DNA of 63,637 nucleotides, counting the filler, from Chiloscyllium plagiosum (taxonomy: Eukaryota): the NCBI RefSeq assembly GCF_004010195.1. It is 6 parts of 6 records of this genome, joined end to end, with 100 filler letters (N's around TTAATTAATTAA, not from the genome) between each part and the next. Parts side by side here need not be neighbours in the genome. Positions count along the whole stretch, not along the records: positions 1 to 25,250 come from NC_057717.1; 5 more parts are not named here. The stretch is one strand, 5' to 3'. The first letter of the stretch is position 1, and each line of letters starts with the position of its first letter. Under the pieces are notes generated by a model. The model was not told where the DNA came from and did no database searches. It worked only from the letters and a program-made list of their open reading frames with translations. Of this stretch, positions 651 to 63,469 are shown piece after piece. Both the position numbers and the translations under genes were made by a program.

Positions 651-828
651 AAGTGCTGGCACATGAGACTGGAATAGTTAGGCGGCTGTTATTTTTAGGT
701 GTGGACTGGATGGACCAAAGGGCCTTTTCCTGTGCTGTATAAAATGATTCTGTGAGAAAGGTTATAAATAATGCATTATTCGGGTTAATCACAGATGTTC
801 TGTTGATCTCAGTTCCCACAAAACTTAG

Positions 829-1134
829 CCGGACATAGCATTTCTTTGTTCTTGTGTGACCCGCTGTGTTGAACATCACAGTAGATTTTGCTGGGGCAAT
901 CTACTGCTGACCCGGGCAGGGTTAACGGGCTGCTCTGGGTATAGGTTCCATTCTTGTTTCTCACTGATCGGTAAGTCTTCAATCCAGTCGTGATTAACTC
1001 CCCACCTTTCTTCCAGGTTATCCTGATTACGTCAGGGTAATAGTCCATTGCCAAACAACCGAAGATCAGAGAACCGGTGTTGTGGTCCTGACAGGAGGAG
1101 ACCAGGCCATAAAACGTGGGGGGAGACGGTGTCT
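829..1134 (-). CDS. IgM heavy-chain Cmu1 exon (splice donor mutated, possibly pseudogene)
   Basis: Acceptor tcctAG at 1136-1135. The 306-nt phase-1 exon encodes (E)TPSPPTFYGLVSSCQ...FGCLAMDYYP...TWKK...IYCDVQHSGSHKNKEMLCP, a C1-set Ig domain resembling shark Cmu1. The expected donor position reads CTAAGT. Confidence 0.9.
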
Positions 1135-1489
1135 CTAGGATAGAATGACCAATTGAGCACATTAGTTTCTGTTAATTTGTCCTTATCAGTTACTCAAATA
1201 TATCCTCAGCTGTAAACGTTTTCCAGCATGCTCCTGCTGAAGTCTACAGTATAACTGGAAGTTGTTTTGGTTTCTTACCAGATGTTGATCATGATCTATT
1301 GGTTCCCTCTTCATAAACATAGCCTCTACCTTGACCATTACCATATAATTTAGGAAGAAGAACATGCTGATCCCACTCTAGTAACTGTTTCAAAAGCTCA
1401 CCAACTGACACTTTCACTGAATTTCAAGTGAAGAGCAGAGAGGTTTCACAAAATACAAACCAAGGAAATGCGGATTCATCAAAATTCTA

Positions 1490-1795
1490 CAGTGTGGGCA
1501 AACAGGCCATTTGGCCCAACATATCCACACCAACCCTCTGAAAAGTAACCTATCCAGACCCATTGCCCTACCCTATTACTCTCCATTTACCTCTGACTAA
1601 TGGACCTAACATGCCAATCCCTGAACACAACATGGCTAATTTACCCAGCTTGCACTGGACCTTGGGAAGAAACCCACACCGACACAGAGAGAATGTGAAA
1701 ACTCCACACAGACAGTCACATGAGGATGGAATCGAACTCGAGTCCCTAATGCTAAGAGGTAGCAATGCTAACCACGGAAGCAGTGTGCCGCCCGA
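1490..1795 (-). mobile_element. HE1-type tRNA-derived SINE
   Basis: Reverse complement of the GGCACGGTGG..TAGCACTGCTGCCTCACAG head plus the gtgtggagttt body shared by many copies in the window. Confidence 0.75.
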
Positions 1796-2370
1796 CTAGG
1801 TACCGTGCTGCATGAAATCAGAAACAAAATCAGATATTGTTGGAAAAACCCAACAGCTGGCAGTATTTCTGGAAAGAAAGCAGAGTGAATAGTTCAGTTC
1901 CAGTGACTCTTCTTCATTTATCAATACAAGGCAGAATGTTCTCTCTGGGAAGATGGTCATTGCAGCAGCAGCACAGGCAGGAGCTGAGCACTGGGACGAG
2001 GAGGATGGCTGTCACGGCTGGACTCATGTCAATTGTCTGGAAGTTGAAACTTCTAATTTAAAATTATCTGAATTCTGGAGACCTCTGAAAAATGGAGGAG
2101 CATTAGGTTTCAGAGGTGTTGAAGGGTTACAGCTAACTGACTTGACTATTTACGTAAATATGATGTGAAAAATTAACAAGTACTCTTTAACTTTAATAAC
2201 TATCAAACTGACACGCAGTTCACCACCAAAACCATCATCTCTCAGACTAAGCACTGCTCTCCCTCGCTGTCTAGACCTAAATTTCCACTCATGTTGACAA
2301 ACCCTTCCCGGTTACTCACCCATTCATACCCAGATTACACCACCCCTATCACAAGAAACACATCCAAGGC

Positions 2371-3490
2371 AATCCATATTGGTAATGTAGATGAGCAGAG
2401 ACATATCGGTGTCCATGTACATAGATACCTAAACGTTCCTAGTCAAGTTGATAGGATTGTTAAGAAGGCATACATTGAGTTGGCTTTCATTAGTAGAGAG
2501 ACTGCGTTTCAAAACCATGAAGTCATGCTGCAGCTGTACAAAACTCTGGTGCGCCTGCACTTGGAGTATTGTGCATAGATCTGGTCACCATATTATAGGA
2601 AGAATGTGGAAGCTTTGGAAAGAGTTCGGAGCAGATTTACCAGGATGTTGCCTGATATGGTGGGAAGGTTTCATGAAGAAAGGATAAGGTTCTTGAGGCT
2701 GTTTCTGTTTGAGAGAAGAAGGTTGAGAGGTAACTTAATTGAGACATATAAGATAATCAGAGGGTTAGATAGGGTAGCCAGTGAGAGTATTTTTTCATTG
2801 GATGGTGATGGCTAGCAGGAGGGGACATAGCCCTAGATTGAAGGCTGATAGATAGAGGACAGATGTCAGAAGTAGGTTTTTTACTCAGACAGTAGTCGGG
2901 GCACGGACGGCACTGTCTGCAACAATCGTATACTTGTCAAATTTAAGGACATTTAAAATGTCATTGGATGAACATATGGATGAAAATGAAATAGTATGTG
3001 ATAGATAGGCTTCAGATTGGTTCCACAGATTGGCACAACATAAAGGCTTGAAGGGACTGTACTGCAGTCTAATGTTCCATTTTCTATATTTCAGATTGAT
3101 ACATAATGTCAATCCCAGAGGTTTACAAAATTATGAGGGGCATCGATAGGGTAAATAGACAAAGTAGTTTCCTTTGGTTCGGGGAAATCCAGAACTAGAG
3201 TGCATAGGTTTAGCGTGAGAGGGAAAAGATGTAAAAGAGACCTAAAGGGGCGACTTTTTCACAGAGAGGGTGATACGTGTATGGAATGAGTTGCCAGAGG
3301 AATTTATGGAGGCAGTTACAATTTCAACATTTAAGAGAAATTTGGATGGGTATATGAATAGGAAGGGTTTGGAGGGATATGGGTCGGGTGCTGGCATGTG
3401 GGACTAAATTGTTTTGGGATATCTGGTCGGCATGGTTGGGTTGAACCGAAGGGTCTGTTTCCATGCTGAACATCTGTATGACTCTATAAT
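2371..3490 (+). mobile_element. Two adjacent 5'-truncated CR1 LINE 3' ends
   Basis: ORF fragments LYKTLVRLHLEYC and ERVRSRFTRMLP...RRRLRGNLIETYKI are typical CR1 ORF2 C-terminal motifs. Confidence 0.85.
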
Positions 3491-4459
3491 TCCACTGCTG
3501 CCACCCTGCATCTGGTCCATGCTGAACCTGGCCCTGACTGGACCTGGCACCATCATTTTCACAACCTCTGTCAGAACCCCACTACACAAGGCATGACTTC
3601 AGCCCATTGTCACTGATCTCTCATCTTCCCCAAGTCAACCTGTTCACATTGTATCCTAGCTCCATTCGCATCTGTCCTTTACCACCTGTCATTTTGCCAG
3701 TCTCTGAGCTTTGCAGTTTGACATCACGTCCACCTGCCACTTCATTACAGTGACCTTCTGCTCTGAAAACAGCCTGGTGCCCTGCACACCTCTCCACTCA
3801 GCAGCGTGGCACCCTGTCGACCTCTCCACTCACAAGCTTGGCAAAGACAGACCTCCTGTATTTCAACTTAAATGGTCCCTCATTTACCAAGCACAATTCG
3901 ACCAAATTATCCTTGTGACCATTACCATTTATGTTGATGCCACCCTGCTAGATGGGGTGAATGCAAGTCTACCCATCAGCCAGCCAATACCTCACAGCCT
4001 ACCAGCTCAAACTCTCCCACATTCCCAAGCTAACCCCTCACTTGCTTACCAGCTTGCAACGTTGAACCAACTGCACCATAAAGCCAGAGAGTTATAAAGC
4101 CATATAGCACATAACAATTCCTTTGGTACAGGTTATCCATGCTGACCAGAGTTCACAAATTAAACTAATTCCATTTGTCTGCTTTTAGCACACATCCATC
4201 CGGACCTATCCAATTCCTATACCTGCCCAATTGTCTCCTAAGTGTTGTACCTGTCTCTGCATTTACCACTTCCTCTGGCACTTCATTCCAATGTCTGGTG
4301 CAGTTACAGAAGGAAGATTCAACTCCTGCACTCAATGCTCTGACCAATGAAGGCACATGTGCCAAAGCTTCAACACACTGGCTACTTGAGGCAATGTTTT
4401 CATGAATTTATGTACCTGAACTCCCAGGTCCCTGTATTCAACATTACTATCCAGTAAGA

Positions 4460-6360
4460 GTATAAAGGAAGTACTTAAGAGGGAAATCAGGAGTGCAGAA
4501 AGGGGACATGAGACAGCTTTGGCAAATAGAATTAAGGAGAATCAGAAGCGTTTTTAAAAATACATTACGGACAAAAAGGTAACGACGGAGAGAATAGGGC
4601 CCTTCAAAGATCAGAAAGGCGGCTTTTGCGTAGAGCCACAGAAAATGCCGAGAGTATTTTGCGTCAGTATTTACTGTGAAAAAGTATATGGCAGATAAAG
4701 ACATAGGGAAATGCATAGTGACATCTTGTAAAATGTTCATTTTATAACAGAAATTGCTGGATGACTTGAAGCGGATAAAGGTGGATAAATCCACAGGACC
4801 TCATCAGGTGTAGCTTACAACTCTGTGGGAATCTAGATAAGTGATTGGTGGGCCCCTTGATGAGATATTTGTACCATCGATAGTCACAGGTGAAGAGCCG
4901 GAAGACTGGAGGTTGGCTAACGTGTTGCCACAGTTTACGAAGGCTGGTAAGGACAAACCATAGAATTATAGACCAGTGAGTCTGACGTAAGTGGCGGGTA
5001 AGTTGCTGGAGGGAATCATGAGAGACAGGATGTACTTGGATTTGGAAAGGCAAGGACTGATTAGGGATAGTCAACATGGCGTTGTGAATGGGAAAGCATG
5101 TCTCACAAACTTGACTGAGATTTTTTGAGGAAGTAACGAAAAGGATTGATGAGGGCAGAGTGGTAGATGTGATCTATATGGACTTCAGTAAGGCGTTCGA
5201 CAAGGTTCCCCATGGGAGACTGATTAGCAAGGTTAGATCTCACGGAATACAGGGAGAACTAACCATTTGGATACAGAACTTGTCATAGGTAGAAGATAGA
5301 GGGTCTTGGTGGAGGGTTGTTTTTCAGACTGGAGACCTGTGCCCAGTCGAGTGCCACAAGGATCGGTGCTGGGGCCTCTACTTTTTGTCATTTACATAAT
5401 TTGTTTAGATGCGAGAATAAGAGGTACAGTTGGTAAGTTTGTAGATGACACCAAAATTGGAGGTGCAGTGGACATGGAAGAGGGTTACCTCAGATTACAA
5501 CATGACGTTGACCAGATGGGCCAAATGGGCTGAGAAGTGGCAGATGGAGTTTAATTTAGATAAATGCGAGGTGCTGCATTTTGGGAAAGCAATTCTTAGC
5601 AGGACTTCTACACTTAATGGTAAGGTCCTAGGGAGTGTTGCTGAACATAGAGACCTTGGAGTGCACATTCATAGCTCCTTGAAAGTCGAGTCGCAGGTAG
5701 ATTGGATAGTGAATAAGGCGTTTGGTGTGCTTTCCTCTATTGGTCAGAGTATTGAATGCAGGAGGTGGGATGACATATTGTGGCTGTACAGGACATTGTT
5801 TTGGCCACTGTTGGAACATTGCGTGCAATTCTGGTCTCCTTACTATGGGAAAGATGATGTGGAACTTGAAAGGGTTCAGAAAAAATTTATAAACATGTTG
5901 CCAGGATTGGAGAATTTGAGCTCGAGGGTGAAGCTGGACAGGCTGGGGCTGTTTTCCCTGGAGCGTCGGAGGCTTAGTGGGTGACCTTATACAGGTTTAA
6001 AATATTATGAGGGACATGGTAAGAGTAAATAGGCAAAGTCTTTTCCCTGGGTTCGAGGAGTCCAGAACTAGAGGGAATAGATTTAGGGTGAGAGGGGAAA
6101 GATACAAAAGAGACCTAAGGGTCAACTCTTTCACACAGAAGGTAGTACGTGTATGGAATGAGCTGCCAGAGGAAGTGGTGGAAACTGGTACAATTGCAAC
6201 AATTAAGAGGCATTTGGAGGGGTATATGAATAGGAAGGGTTTGGAGGGATATGAGCCGTGTGCTGGCAGGTGGGACTAGATTGGGGAGGGATGTCTGGTC
6301 GGCATGAATGGTTGGAATGAAGTGTCTATTTCCATGCTGTACATCTCTATTACTCTATGA
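4460..6360 (+). mobile_element. CR1 LINE, ~1.9-kb ORF2 reverse-transcriptase remnant
   Basis: VPQGSVLGPLLFVIYI, KFVDDTKIGG, WAEKWQMEFNLDKC, LYRTL..PLLEHCVQFWSP; frameshifts and stops. Nested within minus-strand CR1 pieces at ~4090-4460 and ~6360-6620. Confidence 0.92.
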
Positions 6361-9300
6361 CGCTGTAAGAATCTGTGTATCTGAGCTCCCAGGTCTCTCT
6401 GTTCGATGACACGACCCAGTGCCCTACCATTAACTCTGTAAGTTGGGACCTGATTTATCTTCTCAAAAAGTAACACGTCGTATTCATTTAATCTAAACTC
6501 CAACAGCAACTCCTCATCCCATTGGCCCAGCTGATCAAGATCACTTTTAAATCACGTTCACTGCCAATTATAGCACCAATTTTGGTGTCATGTGCAAACT
6601 TACAAACCTTGCCCCATTCGATGTTCTCATGGCTTTCAACCAATATTTTACACTGCTTGCCTTTTCTCCACATATCTGTAGTATTTCTTTAAGAATTGAA
6701 GGAATCTATCTCCTTCTTGAAATCACTTCATGTTTTGACCTCAATCAATTTCTGTGGCGGAGAATTCCAAAGGTTCACCATTCTTTTGTTGTACAGTAAA
6801 CAATCGGGTTCAATTTTATCGGGTGTTGGAAAGGCTGGTGAGCAGCAGGATTTATGATGATCCCATGAATGGAATAGCATTGTAAAGGGACCTAGGTGCC
6901 TACTTCAGCTTCTAATTTGTATTCTAACATGTCCCTTTGGCAGTATATTCCAAAACTGTGATCTTTGAGGATAAGGGTGTGCATGCATGATAATACTTCA
7001 TCTGAAAGATTTCCTCCAAATTAGACTCCACCTTGAATCGCAACTATTTCCCTGCCACTTTTACTTTTCCTCAATCAAAGCCATGGGACTCACTTTCTAA
7101 CAGTGCTGTGAATGTGCTAATACCACACAAACTTCAGCTATTCAAGTAAGCTGAGGACAACTGGTTTTTCAATGTGATATAAAAGTTTGACACTTCCACA
7201 CCTGTCTTGAGATGCAAATAATAGCCGGAAGAATTAAAAAAGTATTTGAGGCACTTGTGTGCCCACACAAGATGACATGTTGAATGGTTTCATTCTGTGT
7301 GGTTTGACTGCGTTTTCACTGAACTAACAGAGCTATTGCTTAATCATATAATGTGAATGAAGCTTCCCTCATTTTTAGCACGACAATCACACATTATGCT
7401 TCCTTGGAATAAAGAAATACCATGTTAAATTAGTGGAATACGAGACTGGGATGTTACAGCCTCATTGTGTCATTTTAATAATCACAGAAATGTCTTTCAA
7501 AAACGGTGTCTCCCTTTGTTATGGACAGTTGAACTATTAAATTTGGGAATAGTGTTTGCTTGCTAAACAACAGTGGTAAAGAGTTTTAGCCAAAGGGAGG
7601 CCTGTGCAGTTAGTGCACAGATGCACCATGATTTAAGTAAGTGGTGGAGCAGCTCGAGGGCTGAGTGCTCTCCTCTTCCCCATCCCTATCATTGTGTCAG
7701 TCGTTAGGCTAGCACTGGCGGTGAACAGTTTGTATTAAAATATTTTAGCAAATTAATTGTCTCACACATTCTTTAAAAAAGAATTCTGTTGATTTGAGTG
7801 ATCATAATAACTCCCACCCAATTACAGCAGGCACTGCACTCTGGAGTGTGTTGTTACTTCATGTTAGTTTCTTGTAAAACAACAATTTGAGATCAGAGCA
7901 TTAACACTCAATGATTCTCTGATACTACATATCTCTGAACATTCTCATTTTGTTCAAATGCATTTTCTCTCTGAACAACTTGTTTCGTCGAACAGAACAT
8001 ATTTTTAAATGAATCAAAAAACTTGGAATTCTAGAAAACTAAAATAAAGACAGAAATTTCTGAAGAAACTCAGCAGGTCTGGCAGCTCCTGTGGAGAGAA
8101 AACAAGGATAACGTTTGACGCCCCCCACCCATGCCTTCAGCAAATTGTTTTCATGCTTTTGGCACAAGAACTCACACCTGTTGAGTTAGACAGCGGTTAC
8201 GTTTGCTTGACTGCTGTTAGAAAAGCATTCTTAGCAGAGGTAGTGGATGAGCCGAGATAACAATTGAAGACCAGTTGAAAAGCTATAACCATCTGCTGCA
8301 AGTGTTGGAATCAGCGGAACCCCCACTGACTGAACAATCAAATTCAGCCACAGCACTGGTTTAATATAAAGTAAAACAACCTAGGTATAATCTCATCAAT
8401 TATGCTTCAAAACAAATCATTATGGATAAGTTATACGTGATATTATTGGAACACCAATTTAAACCTGGGAATTATTTGAGGACTTACTCGATTAACCCTA
8501 GCTAGAGGTGCCCAAAAGCTTGTGAACAAATATTGATCTCGAAAAAGCTGCTAAACGCCAAATTTTGTTTAATATCTAAGAGACAAAAGTCAGGACAGAG
8601 ATGAAATAGATTTCACCTGCCTCTGTGAGTGGAATTCCAACAAACATCCTCACAACTGAATCTGCTTTTCTGCCCCGAATTAACCGGATAAGAGTTGGTA
8701 TTACATACCTCTCTAACAGGCTATAAGTGAACACAAGGCCACCTGGCATGGAGTCAGGCACACTACTACAATATCACAGCAGACCTGAACACAATGAGCT
8801 TCACACTATGTCAGAGAACACAGCCCACCTGTTTGACAGTGCATTAACCATGTTAATTATTGACACCTTCCAACAACAAGGGGTTGTTCCAGAACGTATG
8901 TACAATGAAAGTAACATTGCAACAATTATCCAAGAATACTTTGACAGCAGCTCCGAATTGTTCGAACTCTCTGGGAACTACAGAGGAATAAAACATGGAA
9001 TTGCATTACCATCAATTCATTGTCACTGAATTTTAACCTCGAACTCCCTTCCCTAGAACCACTATTAATGTTGCTGCCCCAGGTGTTCTACTTAGTTTGA
9101 GATAGATGAAAATGTTTTGGAGTGCGTTATGACCGTTGCCAGTAATATTAAACGCTAATAGCTTTTCAAATAGTAAGATTCGAAATAATTTCTGATTCTA
9201 CATTGTGCTACATGTCCTGGACCAACTGAGGCACAAAGGACATAAGCAGCATGTTTCCCTCTGCCTCGCTCAATCAAATATCCCTTGTTGCCAACAACCA

Positions 9301-10001
9301 ATTTCAAAACACTTGGAATCTGCCTGCCTTTTGTTACTGTGGTATTCGTTCTGATTGGAACAACTTAGTCACGGCACTCAGTTCTGAGACACCCAATCAA
9401 ATATTGCATTTCTGGCAGAAAAGAGTAGATTTGAAGAGCAAGATAAAATTGAACTGTCGAAGATTTAGGTTCCCAAACCAGACAATTTACAAATGGTCAG
9501 GACCGGTTGACAAGTTAGTCGGAGATAACACTGAAACGAAATGTACAACAATCTATATGCTAGCGGATATATCTGCTCAATTGCACACATCCAATATATT
9601 CACTGTAATTGAACATTCACCAGAGGAACTAACAAGAGGATTAATGCGAACGAGAACGTGTTCACAATGAACATTGATAATCACTGAGTTAATAAACTTA
9701 ATAATTCGTTGTAATTATTGGTTCATGTCACCAATTAAAGCACAGCTCCAGAGGAAATGGATTATACTCTAAATTATTTTTACATATTCTGAAAGCATTT
9801 CTTGAACTGTGGAGATTTTACATGTACTGCATGATGTTAGTCCTACATTACAGTGTGGAAATGCATGTCTGTTGAAGAATTTAGGGGAAATTCATTTTCT
9901 TGTTAGCAGCATTTAATTTACGAAAATGTTATTTAAAAAGTATGAATTGAAAACATGCTTCTGACTGGAGTGGCCCGCGTTAATTGATGACTAAGCAAAT
10001 G

Positions 10002-10310
10002 TGGGCAGAGCGGTGGATTAGTGATGAGCACTGCTGCCTCACAGATCCAGGTACCCGGGCTCGGTTCAAGCCTCGCTTGACTGTCTCTGTGAAGTTTACA
10101 CATTCTCTACTTTGCGTGGGAATCCTCCCACAATCCAAGGATGTGCACGTCAGGTGAACTGGTCGTGCTATATTGTCCATGGTGTTAGGTGCATTACTCA
10201 GGGGTAAATATGGGGTAGGGGAATGGGTCGGGGTCGGTTACTCTTCAGTGGATCGGTGTGGACTTGTTGGGCCAAATAGCCCAAGGCATACTACAGGAAA
10301 TCAAATCTAA
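10002..10310 (+). mobile_element. HE1-type SINE
   Basis: gggcagagcggtggattagtgatgagcactgctgcctcacag head and aatct tail. Confidence 0.75.
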
Positions 10311-10559
10311 ATAACCATCACACTTATCTAATGTGAGCAGTCTCCTTCAGATTGCTACATTGCAATAATCGGTCAAGTATATTAATTAAAATAAATATTA
10401 CTCTATTTTCAGTGTTTGAATAAACAACGTGCTCTGTTATCCTCTAGTTCATGTCTTCTGAAAATTTGTGAACTCTGCATATGTCTGAACACATCGATGT
10501 AAAATACATTGTCGGTTGTTGCAGCAAGTACTTCCATGATTTTAGAGTATATTTCCTCC

Positions 10560-10870
10560 AGGATGGAAACAGGCCATTTGGCCTAACACTTCCACACTGA
10601 TCCCCCGAGCAGTCCGGAGCCCACGCAGACCCATTTACCCAACCTATATTCAACCCCTACCGAATGCACCCTAATCTACACATCCCTGAACACTATGTGC
10701 AATTTGGAACTGCCAATTCACTTAACCTGCATATCTTTAGGAGAAAGCCCAGGCAGACACTGGGCGAATGTGCAAACTCCATGCAGATAGTTACCCGAGG
10801 GTAGAATCGAACCTGGGATCCTGGCGCTGTGAAGCATCGATGCTAACTACTGAGCCACCATACTGCCCTG
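10560..10870 (-). mobile_element. HE1-type SINE
   Basis: Reverse-strand copy ending ctgagccaccatactgccc. Confidence 0.75.
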
Positions 10871-11203
10871 CGAGTGCATAAGTGGATTGTTTCAATTAAT
10901 TCGAAATTTAGCCTTGGTCACATAATTCACTATAGCAGTTGTTTCCAAAAGAATGACTCTTCAGTTGATATGGGGCTGTAAAATGTAACTATTTATTTAA
11001 ACCGTAGGGATTGGGGACACCTAAAGCACTGTGCAGAATAAATCATTCAGTTGTTTTTTTTTCACAGCAAATTCAGTTTAATCAGGGATAGAACAATTTA
11101 CTTGTGAAACTGATCAAAGCAATGAAACTGATCTGTTGTTCATCGAATGGAGCAGAATTTCCAAATGGTCTTTGCCAATGATATTTTCCAAACAGAAAAC
11201 TTG

Positions 11204-11703
11204 NNNNNNNNNNNNNNNNNNNNNNNNNNNNNNNNNNNNNNNNNNNNNNNNNNNNNNNNNNNNNNNNNNNNNNNNNNNNNNNNNNNNNNNNNNNNNNNNN
11301 NNNNNNNNNNNNNNNNNNNNNNNNNNNNNNNNNNNNNNNNNNNNNNNNNNNNNNNNNNNNNNNNNNNNNNNNNNNNNNNNNNNNNNNNNNNNNNNNNNNN
11401 NNNNNNNNNNNNNNNNNNNNNNNNNNNNNNNNNNNNNNNNNNNNNNNNNNNNNNNNNNNNNNNNNNNNNNNNNNNNNNNNNNNNNNNNNNNNNNNNNNNN
11501 NNNNNNNNNNNNNNNNNNNNNNNNNNNNNNNNNNNNNNNNNNNNNNNNNNNNNNNNNNNNNNNNNNNNNNNNNNNNNNNNNNNNNNNNNNNNNNNNNNNN
11601 NNNNNNNNNNNNNNNNNNNNNNNNNNNNNNNNNNNNNNNNNNNNNNNNNNNNNNNNNNNNNNNNNNNNNNNNNNNNNNNNNNNNNNNNNNNNNNNNNNNN
11701 NNN
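11204..11703. other. Assembly gap (500 N) inside the putative JH-Cmu1 intron
   Basis: Exactly 500 N. The round size suggests a scaffolding gap of unknown true length. Confidence 0.97.
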
Positions 11704-12238
11704 TCCTGATCATGAAAATCTTGTGCAGGGCACAATAGAGCATTTGAAGGCATATAATGATTAATCCCTTTAAGGACAAAACAAAATTACTCAAATGGAC
11801 AAATATTAGCACATTATAATTTTATATTGTAGTAAGTTAGTTTCAATTACGTGAACTGAGCAATTCTGCAGTTGCAGAATTTAGTCCCAAATTTTATTTT
11901 GAATGAGCTGACTCAAAACAAAGTTCGGTTAGTTTACAATTAGAAACTAGATTTTTTAAAATCGTCACTGCATTAAAAAATCGAGTTTTTCATTCCTCAC
12001 ACATCTTTATTTTTGCCTTAAGTTGGTTTTCAGACAGTTTCAACAGATGCAAATTTTTCAATCAAGCAGAATTAAAAATGTCATACGAGTTTAACAAATG
12101 CCGAAACGATTCAGGAAAATCAAAGAACTTCACAAATATTGGTAATTAAAAGTAATCCAGAGAAACCATCTCCTCACCAGAAAGAAAACACCAGTTACTG
12201 AAAGCATGAAAACACAGATCAATTCCACAAACTGTATA

Positions 12239-12530
12239 AGAATCCAATCAACTCAATTCAACAGAATCAAAGAAAATAAAACCAGAATCCAATCAACTCA
12301 AAACAACAGATTTAAATGAAACATAATCAGAATCTAACCAATTCAATTCAACAGAACCAAATAAAACAATTTCAAAATTCAATCAATGCAATTCAACAAA
12401 ACCAAGTAAGAACAAAGTCAGAATCCAATCAACTCATTTCAACCGAATCAAATAAAACAAATTTTAAATCCGAACAACTCAACAGAATCAAGTAAAACGA
12501 TCTTAGAATCTAAATCAACAGAATGAAATA
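12239..12530. repeat. ~45-bp A/C-rich tandem repeat (~7 degenerate units) in the J-C intron
   Basis: Unit approx. AGAATCCAATCAACTCAATTCAACAGAATCAAATAAAACAAAATC, starting near 12239, 12284, 12329, 12374, 12420 and 12465. Confidence 0.85.
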
Positions 12531-13050
12531 TAGCACTGCAAAAAAAATTATGACCGTTATAAACCTGCTTGTCATCAACAAAATTAACAAAATAAAGGAG
12601 AAAATATAATTATGGTAAGAACATAATGTATACAGGAAATATATTCAAGAAGTTGATAATGATATTTTAACATATTTAATCATGTTTGGTAATATTTTGA
12701 ACATCTTTAACTTCTTAGCATTTGTTGTCGATAATGCAATTCCTAGTCCCAGTGTCACTGACCTTAAACATTATTTATACCTGACTGATTAAGAGGCATT
12801 AGGTGTTTTAAGTAACCCAGTCGCACCGAAAGCCTATCGAATCAAAACAAAGAGATATTCAGAGCAACTGACTCCGTCATAACCATTATAACTATTTGCT
12901 GAGCCTTAACTGAAGTCTATAATCAGCCTGAACAAAAATCATTCCGAACCAAACCAAACTCAAGACAGAATCTGAGTTTCATTTAATTCAGAAATTAGTC
13001 ACATGAATGGAAAGTGTTTAAAAAGTCACAAAAAAGGTTAAAGTTCTCAC

Positions 13051-13098
13051 CTGAAGTCACTGTCACCATGGTCCCTTGGCCCCAGTCATCAAGATAGA
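13051..13098 (-). CDS. Ig heavy-chain JH segment (unrearranged)
   Basis: Encodes YLDDWGQGTMVTVTS (WGxG motif), followed by the donor G|GTGAG at 13050. Confidence 0.95.
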
Positions 13099-13137
13099 CA
13101 CAGTGTTACATTATCTGCACTGGGCCACACAATAACT
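13099..13137 (-). promoter_or_regulatory. 23-RSS of JH
   Basis: On the + strand: CACAGTG (13099-13105), 23-nt spacer, ACAATAACT (13129-13137). Confidence 0.92.
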
Positions 13138-13447
13138 AGCTCTGCATAAAACAAACCAAAAGTCTACCATTAAAATTTCGGAACCACAGGCAAAATAAAG
13201 TCAAATTAAATCTTCATCACATGTGCGAGTGAATTCTGATCATTCTTGATAAATTGAAGTGTATTGTTTTATACTTCACAGAGTTACACTTCAGCTGATT
13301 CTCAAAATCACCAATTGGTGCATCAATAATTATCACCACTTTTACAAATTGAACTTGCACAAAAACCCACAGAACTAATACTGCACTGCAAGTTAAGACG
13401 GTTTGTAGAAATAATCACTGACTTGTTTCAAACAATACTGGCTGAAA

Positions 13448-13475
13448 GGTTTTTGTATTGATCCTAATTGCAGTG
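13448..13475 (-). promoter_or_regulatory. 12-RSS immediately 3' of the V-D fused segment
   Basis: On the minus strand: CACTGCA, 12-nt spacer ATTAGGATCAAT, perfect nonamer ACAAAAACC. Confidence 0.88.
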
Positions 13476-13797
13476 TGAATCCAGCTCCCCACTGCTCTTG
13501 CACAGTAATAGATGGCGGTGTCTTCGATCTTCAGGTTTTTCATGTTCAACGCAAAAATGTTGCTTGAAATCTCTTTGGACGCAGTAAATCGGCCCATAAT
13601 CGCTGGTGCATAGTTTTTGTCGGATGAACTATAGTAGTACAGCAGCCATTCCAGGCCCTTGCTGGGAACTTGTCGGACCCAGTGCATGTAGTTGCTGCCA
13701 AGATTGAACCCGCTGATTTTACAGGTCAGTCGCAGACTGCCAGCGGGACGTCCAGTCTCTGCTTCTGGCTGAGTCAAAACAACCTCCGACTGGACAC
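13476..13797 (-). CDS. IgM-type VH exon already joined to D-like sequence (VD or VDD)
   Basis: Acceptor tttaaAG, then (C)[25 protein letters not shown]...WVRQ...GLEW...RFTASK...[10 protein letters not shown] and 20 extra nt (GCAGTGGGGAGCTGGATTCA, read as AVGSWI). Frame open; no 23-RSS after CAR. Confidence 0.93.
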
Positions 13798-13924
13798 CTT
13801 TAAAAAGAAAACAAATAAACATTGAGCAATAATGCTGATGAAATGATGGCTGAATATTTGACATTCCTGGGGTAGACGAACGTTGAGACAGTAACAAAGA
13901 AAGACTTGAACAAAAAACACTCAC

Positions 13925-13973
13925 ATGATAAGAAAGTCAGTAACAAACTGAGAAAAATTGTCGATACAATCAT
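13925..13973 (-). CDS. VH leader (signal peptide) exon
   Basis: ATG at 13973, [16 protein letters not shown], phase-1 donor T|GTGAGT. Splices in frame to the V exon across a 127-nt intron. Confidence 0.93.
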
Positions 13974-14060
13974 TCTGATAACTTTTGGGAAAAAATTCTG
14001 TCAAGATCTTTCTAAACAAAGCCGATCCAGGAGTGTTGAATTACGGTCCAGTGCCCAGGA

Positions 14061-14182
14061 TTTATATCGCCATCGGAAGGGGCAGGCTGACATCTTCCGC
14101 CTGTTGGTGTCCTGCTGGAGTCTGAGACCAGATTCTGGTATCAGCTTGCACAGCCCGAACAGATGGGCTCATGTATTTACAT
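14061..14182 (-). promoter_or_regulatory. VH promoter (TATA box, CRE-like motif, octamer variant)
   Basis: TATAAA at 14066-14061 (~90 nt upstream of ATG); TGACATC at ~14088-14094; ATGTAAAT (one mismatch to the octamer) at 14182-14175. Confidence 0.6.
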
Positions 14183-59179: not shown

Positions 59180-59508
59180 CTACACACATTCTGATCTCCT
59201 GATGCTCTTGCTGAGGGGAGAGGAGAGGGTCACGTGGGTGAGGGCACAGGAGAAGTGAGCGTTGGACTCCCAGTCAGACCCAGAGAGGGTCAGCAGGCTG
59301 CTGACACTGTAGGTGCTGTCTGAAGCTCGCAGGTAGTTGCTGGTCTGAACCCCGTCCGAAATGACTGCACCATCCTTCTTCCACTGCACCTCCAGCTCAG
59401 CGGGATAGAAGTGATTGGCAAGGCACACCAGGGTGGCAGTGCCCTTGGCATTGACCTGCTCCGGGGAGGGGGGCAGCAGGGTCAGCTTGGGCTGAGAGTT
59501 CTCACGGC
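59180..59508 (-). CDS. Ig light-chain constant exon, kappa (type III / NS4-like)
   Basis: Acceptor tctttcAG, then RENSQPKLTLLPPSPEQVNAKGTATLVCLANHFYP...WKKDG...FSCALTHVTLSSPLSKSIRRSECV*. Intact, with the C-terminal inter-chain Cys. Isotype assigned from recalled similarity. Confidence 0.92.
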
Positions 59509-60566: not shown

Positions 60567-60878
60567 ATTCCAGTCTCCCGACGTCTCAGAGACCGCTTGT
60601 GCAAACTTCTCCTGCTGGCGACAACGTTACTCTAAGTTGTAAGTATTCAGGATTCTGTCAGTGCACAGTTTACTGGTACAGTCAGTCCCCAGGACAGGCT
60701 CCGAAATATCTCCTTCAGAGAGACACTACAGGAGAGGCGAAGAAAGAAAATGCTGCTGGGCTACGAATTTCTGAATCTTTTGATCCTCGGGCAAAAATCA
60801 GCCGGTTAATGATCTCTCGAATACAACTACGTGATTCTACTGTTTATTACTGTGCAAGGAGTCGGCGGTCAGCACACA
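60567..60878 (+). CDS. TCR-delta V segment, NAR-TCR supporting-V type (no leader seen)
   Basis: Acceptor ctacAG, then (D)SSLPTSQRPLVQTSPAGDNVTLSCKYSGFCQCTVYWYSQSPGQAPKYLL...LRDSTVYYCARSRRSAH. Non-canonical CDR1 Cys; no signal-peptide exon recognised in the 645 nt upstream. Confidence 0.8.
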
Positions 60879-61039
60879 CACACTGATTCAGCATACAGAG
60901 AGAGCTGTACAAAATCTTGAGCATAGGGGGATTACCGACACAGTGATGCACAGCTGGAAGAGAGCGTTACAAAAACCTGAACATATTAGGATTACAGACA
61001 CACAGTGAGGCAGAGCACGGAGAGACATGTACAAAAACC
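60879..61039 (+). promoter_or_regulatory. Three tandem 23-RSSs
   Basis: CACACTG-23-ACAAAATCT (60879-60917); CACAGTG-23-ACAAAAACC (60939-60977); CACAGTG-23-ACAAAAACC (61001-61039). Confidence 0.93.
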
Positions 61040-62034: not shown

Positions 62035-62397
62035 TTATTGACATGAATTAATAGTGCCCATCAGTGCAAGTGAAATGTTCACAAAACTTGGTTTACCGCT
62101 GTATTTATCGACTGTTCTGTTGATGATCTAGAGTGGAATCGTTTCATGTCCCACCACACATGAATAAGAAGCACCACTGGCCCACTCCTCTGCTGTAATG
62201 GACAACAGGGTGTACATGAAGAAGGAGGTGCTCTGGCTCTCTGCCATCACCTCGGTGTTCTTGCAGTTACTGGGATTAACTGGCTTGTCATTGTTTGTCC
62301 ACTTGACGAAGATCTCTCGGGAAGAGAAGCCTCTCACTAAACAGGTGAGGAAGAGAAACCTCTCAGCGGAAACGTCTTCAGTTGGTGGCAGGAGGAT
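62035..62397 (-). pseudogene. IgM Cmu4 + secretory tail exon with premature stop (5' end truncated by linker)
   Basis: [24 protein letters not shown]...[46 protein letters not shown] at 62130-62128 replaces a Lys; AATAAA at 62039-62034 and 61998-61993. Confidence 0.9.
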
Positions 62398-62773: not shown

Positions 62774-63150
62774 TAATTGACATGAACTAACAGTGCAAGC
62801 GAAATGTTTACAAAACTCGGTTTACCACTGGTTTTCTTGACTATTCTGTTGATGATCTTCAACGGAACCACTTCTTGTCCCACCACACAGGAGTAAGAAG
62901 CAAGATTGGTCATCTGCTGAAATGGATAACAGGCTGTGCATGAAGAAGGAAGTGATGTCGCTCTCCGCTATCACCTCGGTGTTCTTGTAGTTACTGGGAT
63001 TTACAGGCTTGCCATTGTTTGTCCACTTGACGAAGTTCTCTCGGGGGGAGAAACTGCTCACTAAACAGGTGAGGGAGAGAAACCATTCAGCAGAGATTTC
63101 TTCTGTTGGTGGCAGGAGCACAGACACTGATGGCTCCAGTGGATTACTCA
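62774..63150 (-). pseudogene. IgM Cmu4 + secretory tail exon with two frameshifting deletions
   Basis: Acceptor ctgcAG, then [21 protein letters not shown]...LTCLV...KWTNN. Relative to the 62035-62397 copy there is a ~5-nt deletion at EEWASG and a ~10-nt deletion in the tail. Confidence 0.9.
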
Positions 63151-63469
63151 CTGCAGAATATTTGAGACAAATATAAATCAAGTATAATAATCCAGAATCA
63201 ATATCGCGATTTCACTAAATATTAAAATATGCCATTTGTAATTTGGGATTTATTCACTTTCATTTTCTAAAAGGTGCAGAATGGTATCCATAATGTTCAG
63301 TAAAAGATGTAAAATGTTTCATTTGAAAGTCGTCTCCATGTTTCCAGCCCACAACGAGGACATTCTGGCCATTTGTCATTGCTGATAGTGACGTCACAAC
63401 GCAGGCTTCTTCCCGCCTTATCTGACTTAATCAGAATACAATATCCTTTGGTCAGTCTCTTTCTTAGGA

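What the first reader, a model, noticed from the sequence alone, without database searches (positions are those of the whole stretch)
13051..13505. Partially pre-rearranged IgM gene: V-D(D) fused, one RAG step from complete
Seen: YYCAR runs straight into 20 nt (GCAGTGGG-GAG-CTGGATTCA) and a 12-RSS. The V 23-RSS and the V-D and D-D intervals are gone. JH with its 23-RSS lies only ~380 nt away, so 12/23-compatible joining remains possible, and leader-V-D is open. Established: shark IgH clusters are V23-12D23-12D12-23J, and germline-joined VD/VDD-J genes are known in elasmobranchs. Inference: CAGTGGG and CTGGAT look like trimmed D1 and D2 cores separated by N-like GAG, a fossil of RAG (and possibly TdT) activity in the germ line with a half-fixed CDR3.
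Basis: partly seen in the sequence, partly recalled or inferred. Interest (0 to 1): 0.7.

Follow-up and report, generated by a model that had tools for sequence, protein, structure and literature searches.

The report
Dead half-assembled shark IgM gene
A shark antibody heavy-chain gene has its V and both D pieces already fused, with the same joint in a sister copy and in a related bamboo shark, so it is very likely inherited; its constant region is broken, so it is likely a dead example of the half-assembled antibody genes already known from sharks.

Summary
On the minus strand an open IgM VH runs into 20 nt, then the family's normal D2 3' 12-RSS; JH and its 23-RSS lie 377 nt on. Against unrearranged paralogs the 20 nt parse fully as V end (G) + D1 (CAGTGGG) + D2. 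The 'N-like GAG' is templated, and organism C has D1's own last T there, so there is no sign of TdT. The joint is very likely germline: a 96%-identical sister copy, a Chiloscyllium punctatum gene model (AVGSW plus colinear D-J read-through) and contigs of two samples of organism C carry it. The 12/23 pair is intact, but the constant region is broken: Cmu1 donor GT>CT, a 50-nt Cmu3 deletion and a Cmu4 stop. The likely sister C exons have their own stops. No read or contig showed the finished join. It is not rare: 7 of 54 readable IgM V ends in this genome are VDD-J and about 20 carry some join. Partly germline-joined IgH clusters are in the reviews, and this scan noted the kind before on other DNA. 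Verdict: new member of a known kind, likely a pseudogene; low interest.

The parts
13925..13973 (-). Leader exon ([16 protein letters not shown]), GT donor intact
   Evidence: a spliced joint at the matching place (13797/13925) in run X1, from family members
13496..13797 (-). IgM VH exon, open, ends YYCAR
   Evidence: 91.9% identical over 99 aa to C. punctatum P0018, against about 82-84% for the other paralogs shown
13495..13495 (-). One base (G) of the 3-nt V overhang; two trimmed
   Evidence: unrearranged V ends read AGA-GAC/GAA/GGC/TAC before the 23-RSS
13488..13494 (-). D1 core CAGTGGG (D1 = ATACTACAGTGGGT, 6 nt lost 5')
13476..13487 (-). D2 remnant (G)AGCTGGATTCA with its 3' end uncut; 13487 is T in organism C (last base of D1, also D2's own T)
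   Evidence: 9-10 of 12 with AGCTGG-type D2s
13448..13475 (-). D2 3' 12-RSS, CACTGCA-12-ACAAAAACC, family consensus
13138..13447 (-). D2-J interval, about 84-86% identical to unrearranged paralogs (over the 441-nt query)
13099..13137 (+). JH 23-RSS, CACAGTG-23-ACAATAACT, family consensus
13051..13098 (-). JH (YLDDWGQGTMVTVTS), GT donor at 13050
1135..13050 (-). J-Cmu1 intron, colinear with paralogs on both sides of the 500-N gap (11204-11703)
827..1134 (-). Cmu1 exon (1134-829), open, but its donor reads CT (828-827) instead of GT. Cmu2 (open), Cmu3 (50-nt deletion), Cmu4 (stop), secretory tail (2 nt lost) and TM1 (open) lie beyond the window start, at G000:C8:56401335-56394678

Best explanation
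This is a shark IgM heavy-chain cluster whose V, D1 and D2 are fused while J is still separate (VDD-J), very likely joined by RAG in an ancestor's germ line and now likely a pseudogene because its constant exons are broken. Inferred history: two deletional RAG joins (V-D1 and D1-D2) with short trimming and no added bases removed the V-D1 and D1-D2 intervals in a germ cell or early embryo, before the lineage of this shark split from that of Chiloscyllium punctatum. The gene was then likely duplicated (96% identical sister copy), and each copy collected its own disabling changes in the C exons. RAG could still join D2 to J in lymphocytes, since a family-consensus 12/23 pair remains, but the transcript would likely give no mu chain. 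Shown: anatomy, parse of the joint, sister copy, the same joint in other species, C lesions. Inferred: RAG as the enzyme, germ cell as the place, order of events, pairing of the sister V with the sister C contigs, silence at the protein level.
For: Joint parses fully into V, D1 and D2 with all four cut points within 0-6 nt of coding ends and no RSS letters left. Sister copy L002 has an identical 20-nt joint and 39 differences in 1052 aligned columns; only these two places match the joint pattern in G000. C. punctatum model P0018 (GCC20352.1) reads YYCTRAVGSWIVTAIMIDTKTFQPLLFETGQ, 113 of 127 aa identical with no gaps across V, joint, 12-RSS and D-J interval, and its best matches among 30 loci are L001 and L002. 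Two samples of organism C have gap-free contigs across the joint (X14 record 17, 13381-13723; X16 record 15). C lesions: Cmu1 donor G|CT against G|GT in 11 of the 12 other Cmu1 exons printed (13 of 30 fetched were printed); 50-nt Cmu3 deletion; TAA at the end of Cmu4. The 96%-identical C contigs L113 and L112 have a stop in Cmu1 and one in Cmu3 and share a 2-nt loss in the secretory tail with the window's copy. V exon differences between the copies are 6 replacement and 1 silent, with no sign of purifying selection. Partly joined IgH loci are a known feature of sharks (PMC3308330, PMC5192425, PMC4279169, passages).
Against: Of 8 runs laid, only the 2 of organism C bridge the joint. The 4 runs of organism A (the best-matching organism) and the 2 of organism B show no contig or read over 13484-13487; the tool warns that its filter leaves holes, so this is inconclusive, not negative. 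Two assembly gaps (500 N and 1184 N) lie between J and Cmu2, so Cmu2-TM could be mis-scaffolded, though both flanks are colinear with paralogs and the Cmu1 donor loss lies before the second gap. The V frame is open in three sequences, leader and J splice sites are intact and the upstream region is conserved, so the V half does not look decayed. P0018 is a protein model, so its DNA was not seen. VDD-J is also a frequent somatic intermediate in nurse shark thymocytes (PMC2435157, passages).
Confidence: 0.87

Rival explanations
1. Still-used one-step gene: RAG finishes the D2-J join in B cells and the V is expressed, either with an intact C in other individuals or after switching to another cluster's C, giving a half-fixed public CDR3 (CARAVGSW...).
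For: Open V in the window, L002 and P0018; family-consensus 12- and 23-RSS; 16 of 49 simple trimmed joins would be in frame and stop-free; switching between clusters is stated in PMC5192425 (passage). Run X1, which looks like RNA, holds contigs with 3-4 differences from this V, its leader intron and its D-J interval.
Against: Both C regions carry several independent lesions. None of the 8 V-to-J joints listed for X1 and X3 has this joint, and 0 of 15 raw reads laid from X21 (about 2% of the run) carry it. Expression of germline-joined H genes was not detected in horned shark (PMC2193156, passage).
Confidence: 0.07
2. Somatic VDD-J intermediate from lymphocyte DNA that entered the assembly.
For: VDD-J is a frequent intermediate in nurse shark thymocytes (PMC2435157, passages); the tissue behind this assembly is not known to me; no run of organism A showed the joint.
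Against: The same joint in a 96%-identical second copy, in C. punctatum and in two samples of organism C cannot come from one lymphocyte clone.
Confidence: 0.02
3. Two ordinary deletions (slippage or microhomology repair) rather than RAG removed the intervals.
For: A 1-nt T overlap at the D1-D2 joint is possible; non-RAG deletions occur in this family (L004 lost its J heptamer, L136 has a shortened V-D1 interval). No clear P or N bases mark this joint.
Against: All four breakpoints lie within 0-6 nt of RSS-coding borders in intervals of about 350-440 nt. About 20 of 54 readable loci show joins at such borders in several combinations, and the six VDD-J loci in the tree are rejected as one clade (p-AU 1.7e-9), so the event recurred.
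Confidence: 0.03
4. The joint contains TdT-added N bases.
For: G at 13487 is not the T expected from D1 or from most D2s.
Against: AG is D2 sequence; GAG is in the D2 of L021; organism C has T at 13487, so G is best read as a later substitution. Three V-DDJ loci (L011, L012, L016) have the same kind of GGGT|A D1-D2 joint with no added base. PMC2193156 (passage) found little evidence of TdT in germline-joined light chains.
Confidence: 0.04

Closest known systems
Partly germline-joined IgH clusters of elasmobranchs (VD-J, VD-DJ; reviews PMC3308330, PMC5192425, PMC4279169, passages; Kokubu et al. 1988 seen only as a reference, not held)
   Same: V and D coding ends fused in inherited DNA, intervals gone, J still behind its RSS, in a V-D-D-J-C cluster; mixed with unjoined and fully joined clusters in the same genome.
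   Different: Here the D1 and D2 parts are resolved base by base and the same joint is traced in a duplicate and in other species. The exact label 'VDD-J' turned up in one paper only, as a somatic form; that the reviews' 'VD-J' covers V-D1-D2 fusions is my recollection.
Somatic VDD-J (2R) intermediate of nurse shark thymocytes and B cells (PMC2435157, passages)
   Same: Same configuration and same remaining 12/23 pair.
   Different: Fixed in the genome, shared between species, no clear N region, and has drifted since (two changes in the D2 3' end).
Nurse shark IgM1gj (PMC4279169, PMC5192425, passages)
   Same: Germline-joined IgM-type V region.
   Different: IgM1gj is fully VDJ-joined, lacks Cmu2 and is expressed in pups; this gene is unjoined at J, has Cmu2 and has broken C exons.
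Germline-joined NS4 (kappa) light chains of nurse shark (PMC2193156, passages)
   Same: Several independent germline joins beside split paralogs, trimmed coding ends, little sign of TdT.
   Different: Heavy chain, two joins made and one left open.

Membership tests
Cartilaginous fish IgM heavy-chain cluster | Split leader, one VH, D1, D2 and one JH close together | tested here: met
   D1 and D2 present as fused remnants
Cartilaginous fish IgM heavy-chain cluster | Cmu1-Cmu4, secretory tail and TM exon downstream in the same orientation | tested here: met
   tblastn with nurse shark mu chain P0010: 59-83% identity per exon piece, about 12-21 kb beyond J; two assembly gaps on the way
Partly germline-joined IgH (VD-J / VDD-J) | V 23-RSS and V-D1, D1-D2 intervals absent; coding ends fused with short trims and no RSS remnant | tested here: met
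Partly germline-joined IgH (VD-J / VDD-J) | Remaining D 12-RSS and J 23-RSS with their interval | tested here: met
Partly germline-joined IgH (VD-J / VDD-J) | Joint is inherited, not somatic | tested here: met
   same joint in L002, in C. punctatum P0018 and in organism C samples S11 and S12; 2 of 8 runs laid bridge it
Partly germline-joined IgH (VD-J / VDD-J) | Direct detection in non-lymphoid DNA of several individuals of this species | tested here: inconclusive
   no listed contig or read of organism A (4 runs) covers 13484-13487; X2 holds V contigs with 0-1 differences from the window
Partly germline-joined IgH (VD-J / VDD-J) | Made by RAG in germ cells | not testable with these tools
   inferred from breakpoints at RSS borders and from PMC2193156 (passages)
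Functional IgM heavy-chain gene | Open C exons with intact splice sites | tested here: not met
   Cmu1 donor CT, 50-nt Cmu3 deletion, Cmu4 stop, secretory-tail frameshift
Functional IgM heavy-chain gene | Completed VDDJ transcripts | tested here: inconclusive
   none among 8 listed V-J joints in X1 and X3 or 15 raw reads of X21; sampling is shallow
IgM1gj | Fully joined VDJ and no Cmu2 | tested here: not met
   J unjoined; Cmu2 present and open
TdT-modified junction | Bases not templated by V, D1 or D2 | tested here: not met

The most novel reading that the evidence does not exclude
The fused V-D-D exon outlived its own constant region as a working part: kept open with both signals intact in several bamboo-shark lineages, it is finished by one RAG join in B cells and expressed on another cluster's Cmu by inter-cluster switching, giving a trans-species public CDR3 (AVGSW). 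Such half-joined genes could also be way-stations that get finished in the germ line of sister lineages, as C. punctatum P0007 (QWSG run on into J, against the unjoined QWSG locus L004 here) hints.
Probability: 0.08. Interest if true: 0.6.

Novelty: new member of a known kind. Interest (0 to 1): 0.2.

Why it matters
As it stands it matters little: one more partly joined shark IgM cluster, likely dead. Its use is as a datable fossil of recombinase activity in the germ line. The joint is older than a species split, shows no added bases, and sits among about 20 other joined loci in several joining states, so this genome and its relatives could be used to time germline joins and to ask whether they happen in steps. 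It would matter more if repertoire data showed the AVGSW joint in expressed antibodies.

Tried and rejected
TdT/N reading of GAG: rejected. Somatic artefact: rejected by sister copy and other species. One origin for all VDD-J loci: rejected on a tree of 28 D2-J intervals (6 VDD-J, 20 open, 2 ungrouped; L005 lacked J and was left out; p-AU 1.7e-9; bootstrap not fully settled). Finished (VDDJ) form of this joint in G000: the long pattern gave only L001 and L002; the short V-D1 pattern gave 5 places, of which one more is an Ig gene (L047 = L121, a different joint) and two are not Ig. Intact sister constant region: looked for and found broken. Expression: no RNA holder listed; X21 gave 15 reads from about 2% of the run, none informative; uncovered places in organism A and B runs are not evidence either way. 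X16 record 12 also crosses the joint but has under 31 letters on one side and 2 gaps, so it was not counted. Dating: 4% between copies with the epaulette shark pedigree rate (7e-10 per generation, PMC10587355 passage) gives about 29 million generations, which I do not trust, so no date is offered; one search listed papers on divergence but I read none for a date. A finished QWSG form in G000: only L004 matched exactly; the nine 1-mismatch hits were not examined. Kokubu et al. 1988 not held. Search of earlier scan findings by sequence: nothing. No structure or complex prediction was run, as it would not bear on the question.

Full report
Check of the observation. The gene lies on the minus strand of the first stretch of the pack, which is G000:C8 (window 12950-14100 = C8:56415854-56417004). 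Leader (ATG 13973), leader intron, an open VH exon (13797-13496; Pfam V-set), 20 nt (13495-13476), CACTGCA-12-ACAAAAACC (13475-13448), the rest of a 377-nt interval, a 23-RSS (13099-13137) and JH (13098-13051) follow in order. The nearest named relatives are Chiloscyllium punctatum IgM V regions, so this is a bamboo-shark-type genome, close to but not identical with C. punctatum (inference).

What the joint is made of. Unrearranged paralogs in the same genome give D1 = ATACTACAGTGGGT with a 22-nt 3' spacer and ten D2 variants such as ATATAGCTGGAGTGA and AAAGAGCTGGAATGA, most followed by CACTGCA-12-ACAAAAACC. Their V ends carry 3 nt past the Arg codon and then a 23-RSS. The window's 20 nt are G (V overhang), CAGTGGG (D1) and GAGCTGGATTCA, which matches the last 12 nt of the L021 D2 at 10 places and of ATATAGCTGGAGTGA at 9. 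None of 200,000 random 19-mers met both criteria. The one doubtful base, G at 13487, is T in organism C, which is the last base of D1 and also D2's own base. The simplest ancestral joint is CAGTGGGT|AGCTGGA with no added base; three V-DDJ loci here have the same kind of D1-D2 joint. That germline joins show little TdT work agrees with PMC2193156 (passages).

Germline or somatic. VDD-J is a frequent somatic intermediate in nurse shark thymocytes (PMC2435157, passages), so this had to be tested. Three lines point to inheritance. First, L002 (C7502) has the identical 20 nt and differs at 39 of 1052 aligned columns; these are the only two matches to the joint pattern. Second, the C. punctatum model P0018 reads through V into AVGSW and on, without gaps, through the 12-RSS and the D-J interval (113 of 127 aa); among 30 V loci its best matches are L001 and L002 at 91-92%, against about 82-84% for the next five. 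Third, two samples of organism C (one study) have gap-free contigs across the joint (X14: 13381-13723, 29 other letters; X16: 13381-13545, 17 other letters); I take these runs for genomic DNA because X14 shows germline RSS ends and no spliced leader and X16 shows germline RSS ends, but their kind is not on record. Against this: of 8 runs laid, the 4 of organism A and the 2 of organism B show nothing over 13484-13487. X2 does hold V contigs with 0-1 and with 4 differences (the sister's count in that stretch), and the tool warns that its filter leaves holes, so I count this as inconclusive. Four percent between the copies is about twenty times the diversity reported for a related shark (0.002, PMC10587355, passage), which favours a duplicate over an allele (inference).

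Can it still work? Both remaining signals are family consensus, and 16 of 49 simple trimmed joins would be in frame and open. The constant region is the problem. Cmu1 (window 1134-829) is open, but its donor reads G|CT where 11 of the 12 other printed Cmu1 exons have G|GT and one has a deletion (13 of 30 fetched loci were printed). Beyond the window start, Cmu2 is open, Cmu3 has a 50-nt frameshifting deletion, Cmu4 ends in TAA just before the SGK codons where the membrane-form donor lies (position recalled), and the secretory tail lacks 2 nt. The J-C intron is colinear with paralogs on both sides of two assembly gaps, so these exons most likely belong to this cluster. A 96%-identical set of C exons on small contigs (L113, L112), likely the sister's, has other stops in Cmu1 and Cmu3 and shares the tail deletion. 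So the tail was likely lost before the duplication and each copy decayed on its own afterwards (inference). Between the copies the V exon has 6 replacement and 1 silent change: few, but no hint of purifying selection. None of the 8 V-to-J joints listed in X1 and X3, which look like RNA, carries this joint, and none of 15 raw reads from about 2% of X21 does; this sampling is too thin to prove silence. X1 does hold contigs within 3-4 letters of this V, its intron and its D-J interval, which could be unspliced transcripts or DNA.

How common is it? A pattern for the V end gave 55 places; 54 could be read. Seven are VDD-J (L001, L002, L003, L004, L005, L123, L135; six different joints), three VDDJ, two VD with D1's RSS, two VD-DJ, four V-DDJ, one V-D-DJ and one likely V-DD-J: about 20 of 54 with at least one join. 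This is a lower bound, since many contigs end early, and some small contigs may be haplotypes. A tree of 28 D2-J intervals places L001 and L002 as a well-supported pair outside the main group of open clusters and rejects one clade for the six VDD-J loci included (p-AU 1.7e-9), so such joins recurred.

Comparison with what is known. Reviews state that many shark IgH clusters are partly (VD-J, VD-DJ) or fully joined in the germ line, about half of the loci in one account, and ascribe this to RAG in germ cells (PMC3308330; PMC5192425; PMC4279169; all passages). PMC2193156 (passages) adds that expression of joined H genes was not detected in horned shark. The label VDD-J with 'germline' and 'shark' was found in one paper only, where it is somatic; Kokubu et al. 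1988 was seen only as a reference. PMC8692893 (passages) counts 37 IgM clusters and pre-joined IgNAR D segments in a bamboo shark but, in what I saw, does not describe joined IgM. PMC12227049 (passages) and PMC2192082 (abstract and references) added nothing on this point. I found no paper on this locus; most subscription papers and all supplements were unseen. Earlier notes of this scan report the same kind in this and other genomes; they are unchecked and not support.

Verdict. The TdT reading and 'one step from complete' as a working antibody gene are not. It is a new member of a known kind and likely a pseudogene (0.87). Interest 0.2. The bold reading, a V-D-D part still used through another cluster's constant region, is not excluded (0.08).

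Noticed in passing
P0007 (C. punctatum GCC37862.1) and L004 (G000:C8:26272266-26273410): The C. punctatum model reads CAMQWSGYFDYW; L004 here has the same QWSG joint but is still VDD-J with a deleted J heptamer, and is P0007's best match by score among 30 loci (query included the joint). May be a second, later germline join in one lineage, or a gene-model patch; only the protein was seen.
   Followed up: partly
window 13092/13488 and 13088/13486, run X12 (organism B); 13097/13488, run X16: Contigs join the V-CAGTGGG side directly to J (depth 25 with TA between; depth 9.4 with 11 letters between; depth 8.8 with 9 letters between). The first would read about CARAVGIDxW in frame, which could be a finished relative of this joint or an independent join. 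Contig letters were not seen.
   Followed up: no
G000 IgM loci L001-L030, L118-L142: About 20 of 54 readable V ends show germline-type joins in seven states (VDD-J, VDDJ, VD-, VD-DJ, V-DDJ, V-D-DJ, likely V-DD-J).
   Followed up: yes
L020 (G000:C8:41676842-41677586): The V end is fused to an inverted piece of the J intron with no RSS, like an aberrant inversional join or a mis-assembly.
   Followed up: no
L008 (G000:C70258): A V-like stretch precedes D2 and a D2 5' RSS piece precedes J, out of the usual order; likely mis-assembly.
   Followed up: no
window 60879-61039 (+): Three tandem 23-RSSs (60879, 60939, 61001) follow a V exon (60590-60868, Pfam V-set). A like array was noted before by the scan (e1-8592395) as behind NAR-TCR supporting V genes; not checked here.
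   Followed up: partly
window 62038-62397, 62776-63151 and 59192-59497 (all -): Other stretches of the pack hold two damaged Cmu4 exons with secretory tails and an Ig light-chain-like C exon.
   Followed up: no
L091, G000:C8:56443540-56444177 (+): A Cmu1 exon of another IgM cluster lies about 27 kb upstream on the opposite strand; no V was found in L114 or L117, part of which is N.
   Followed up: partly
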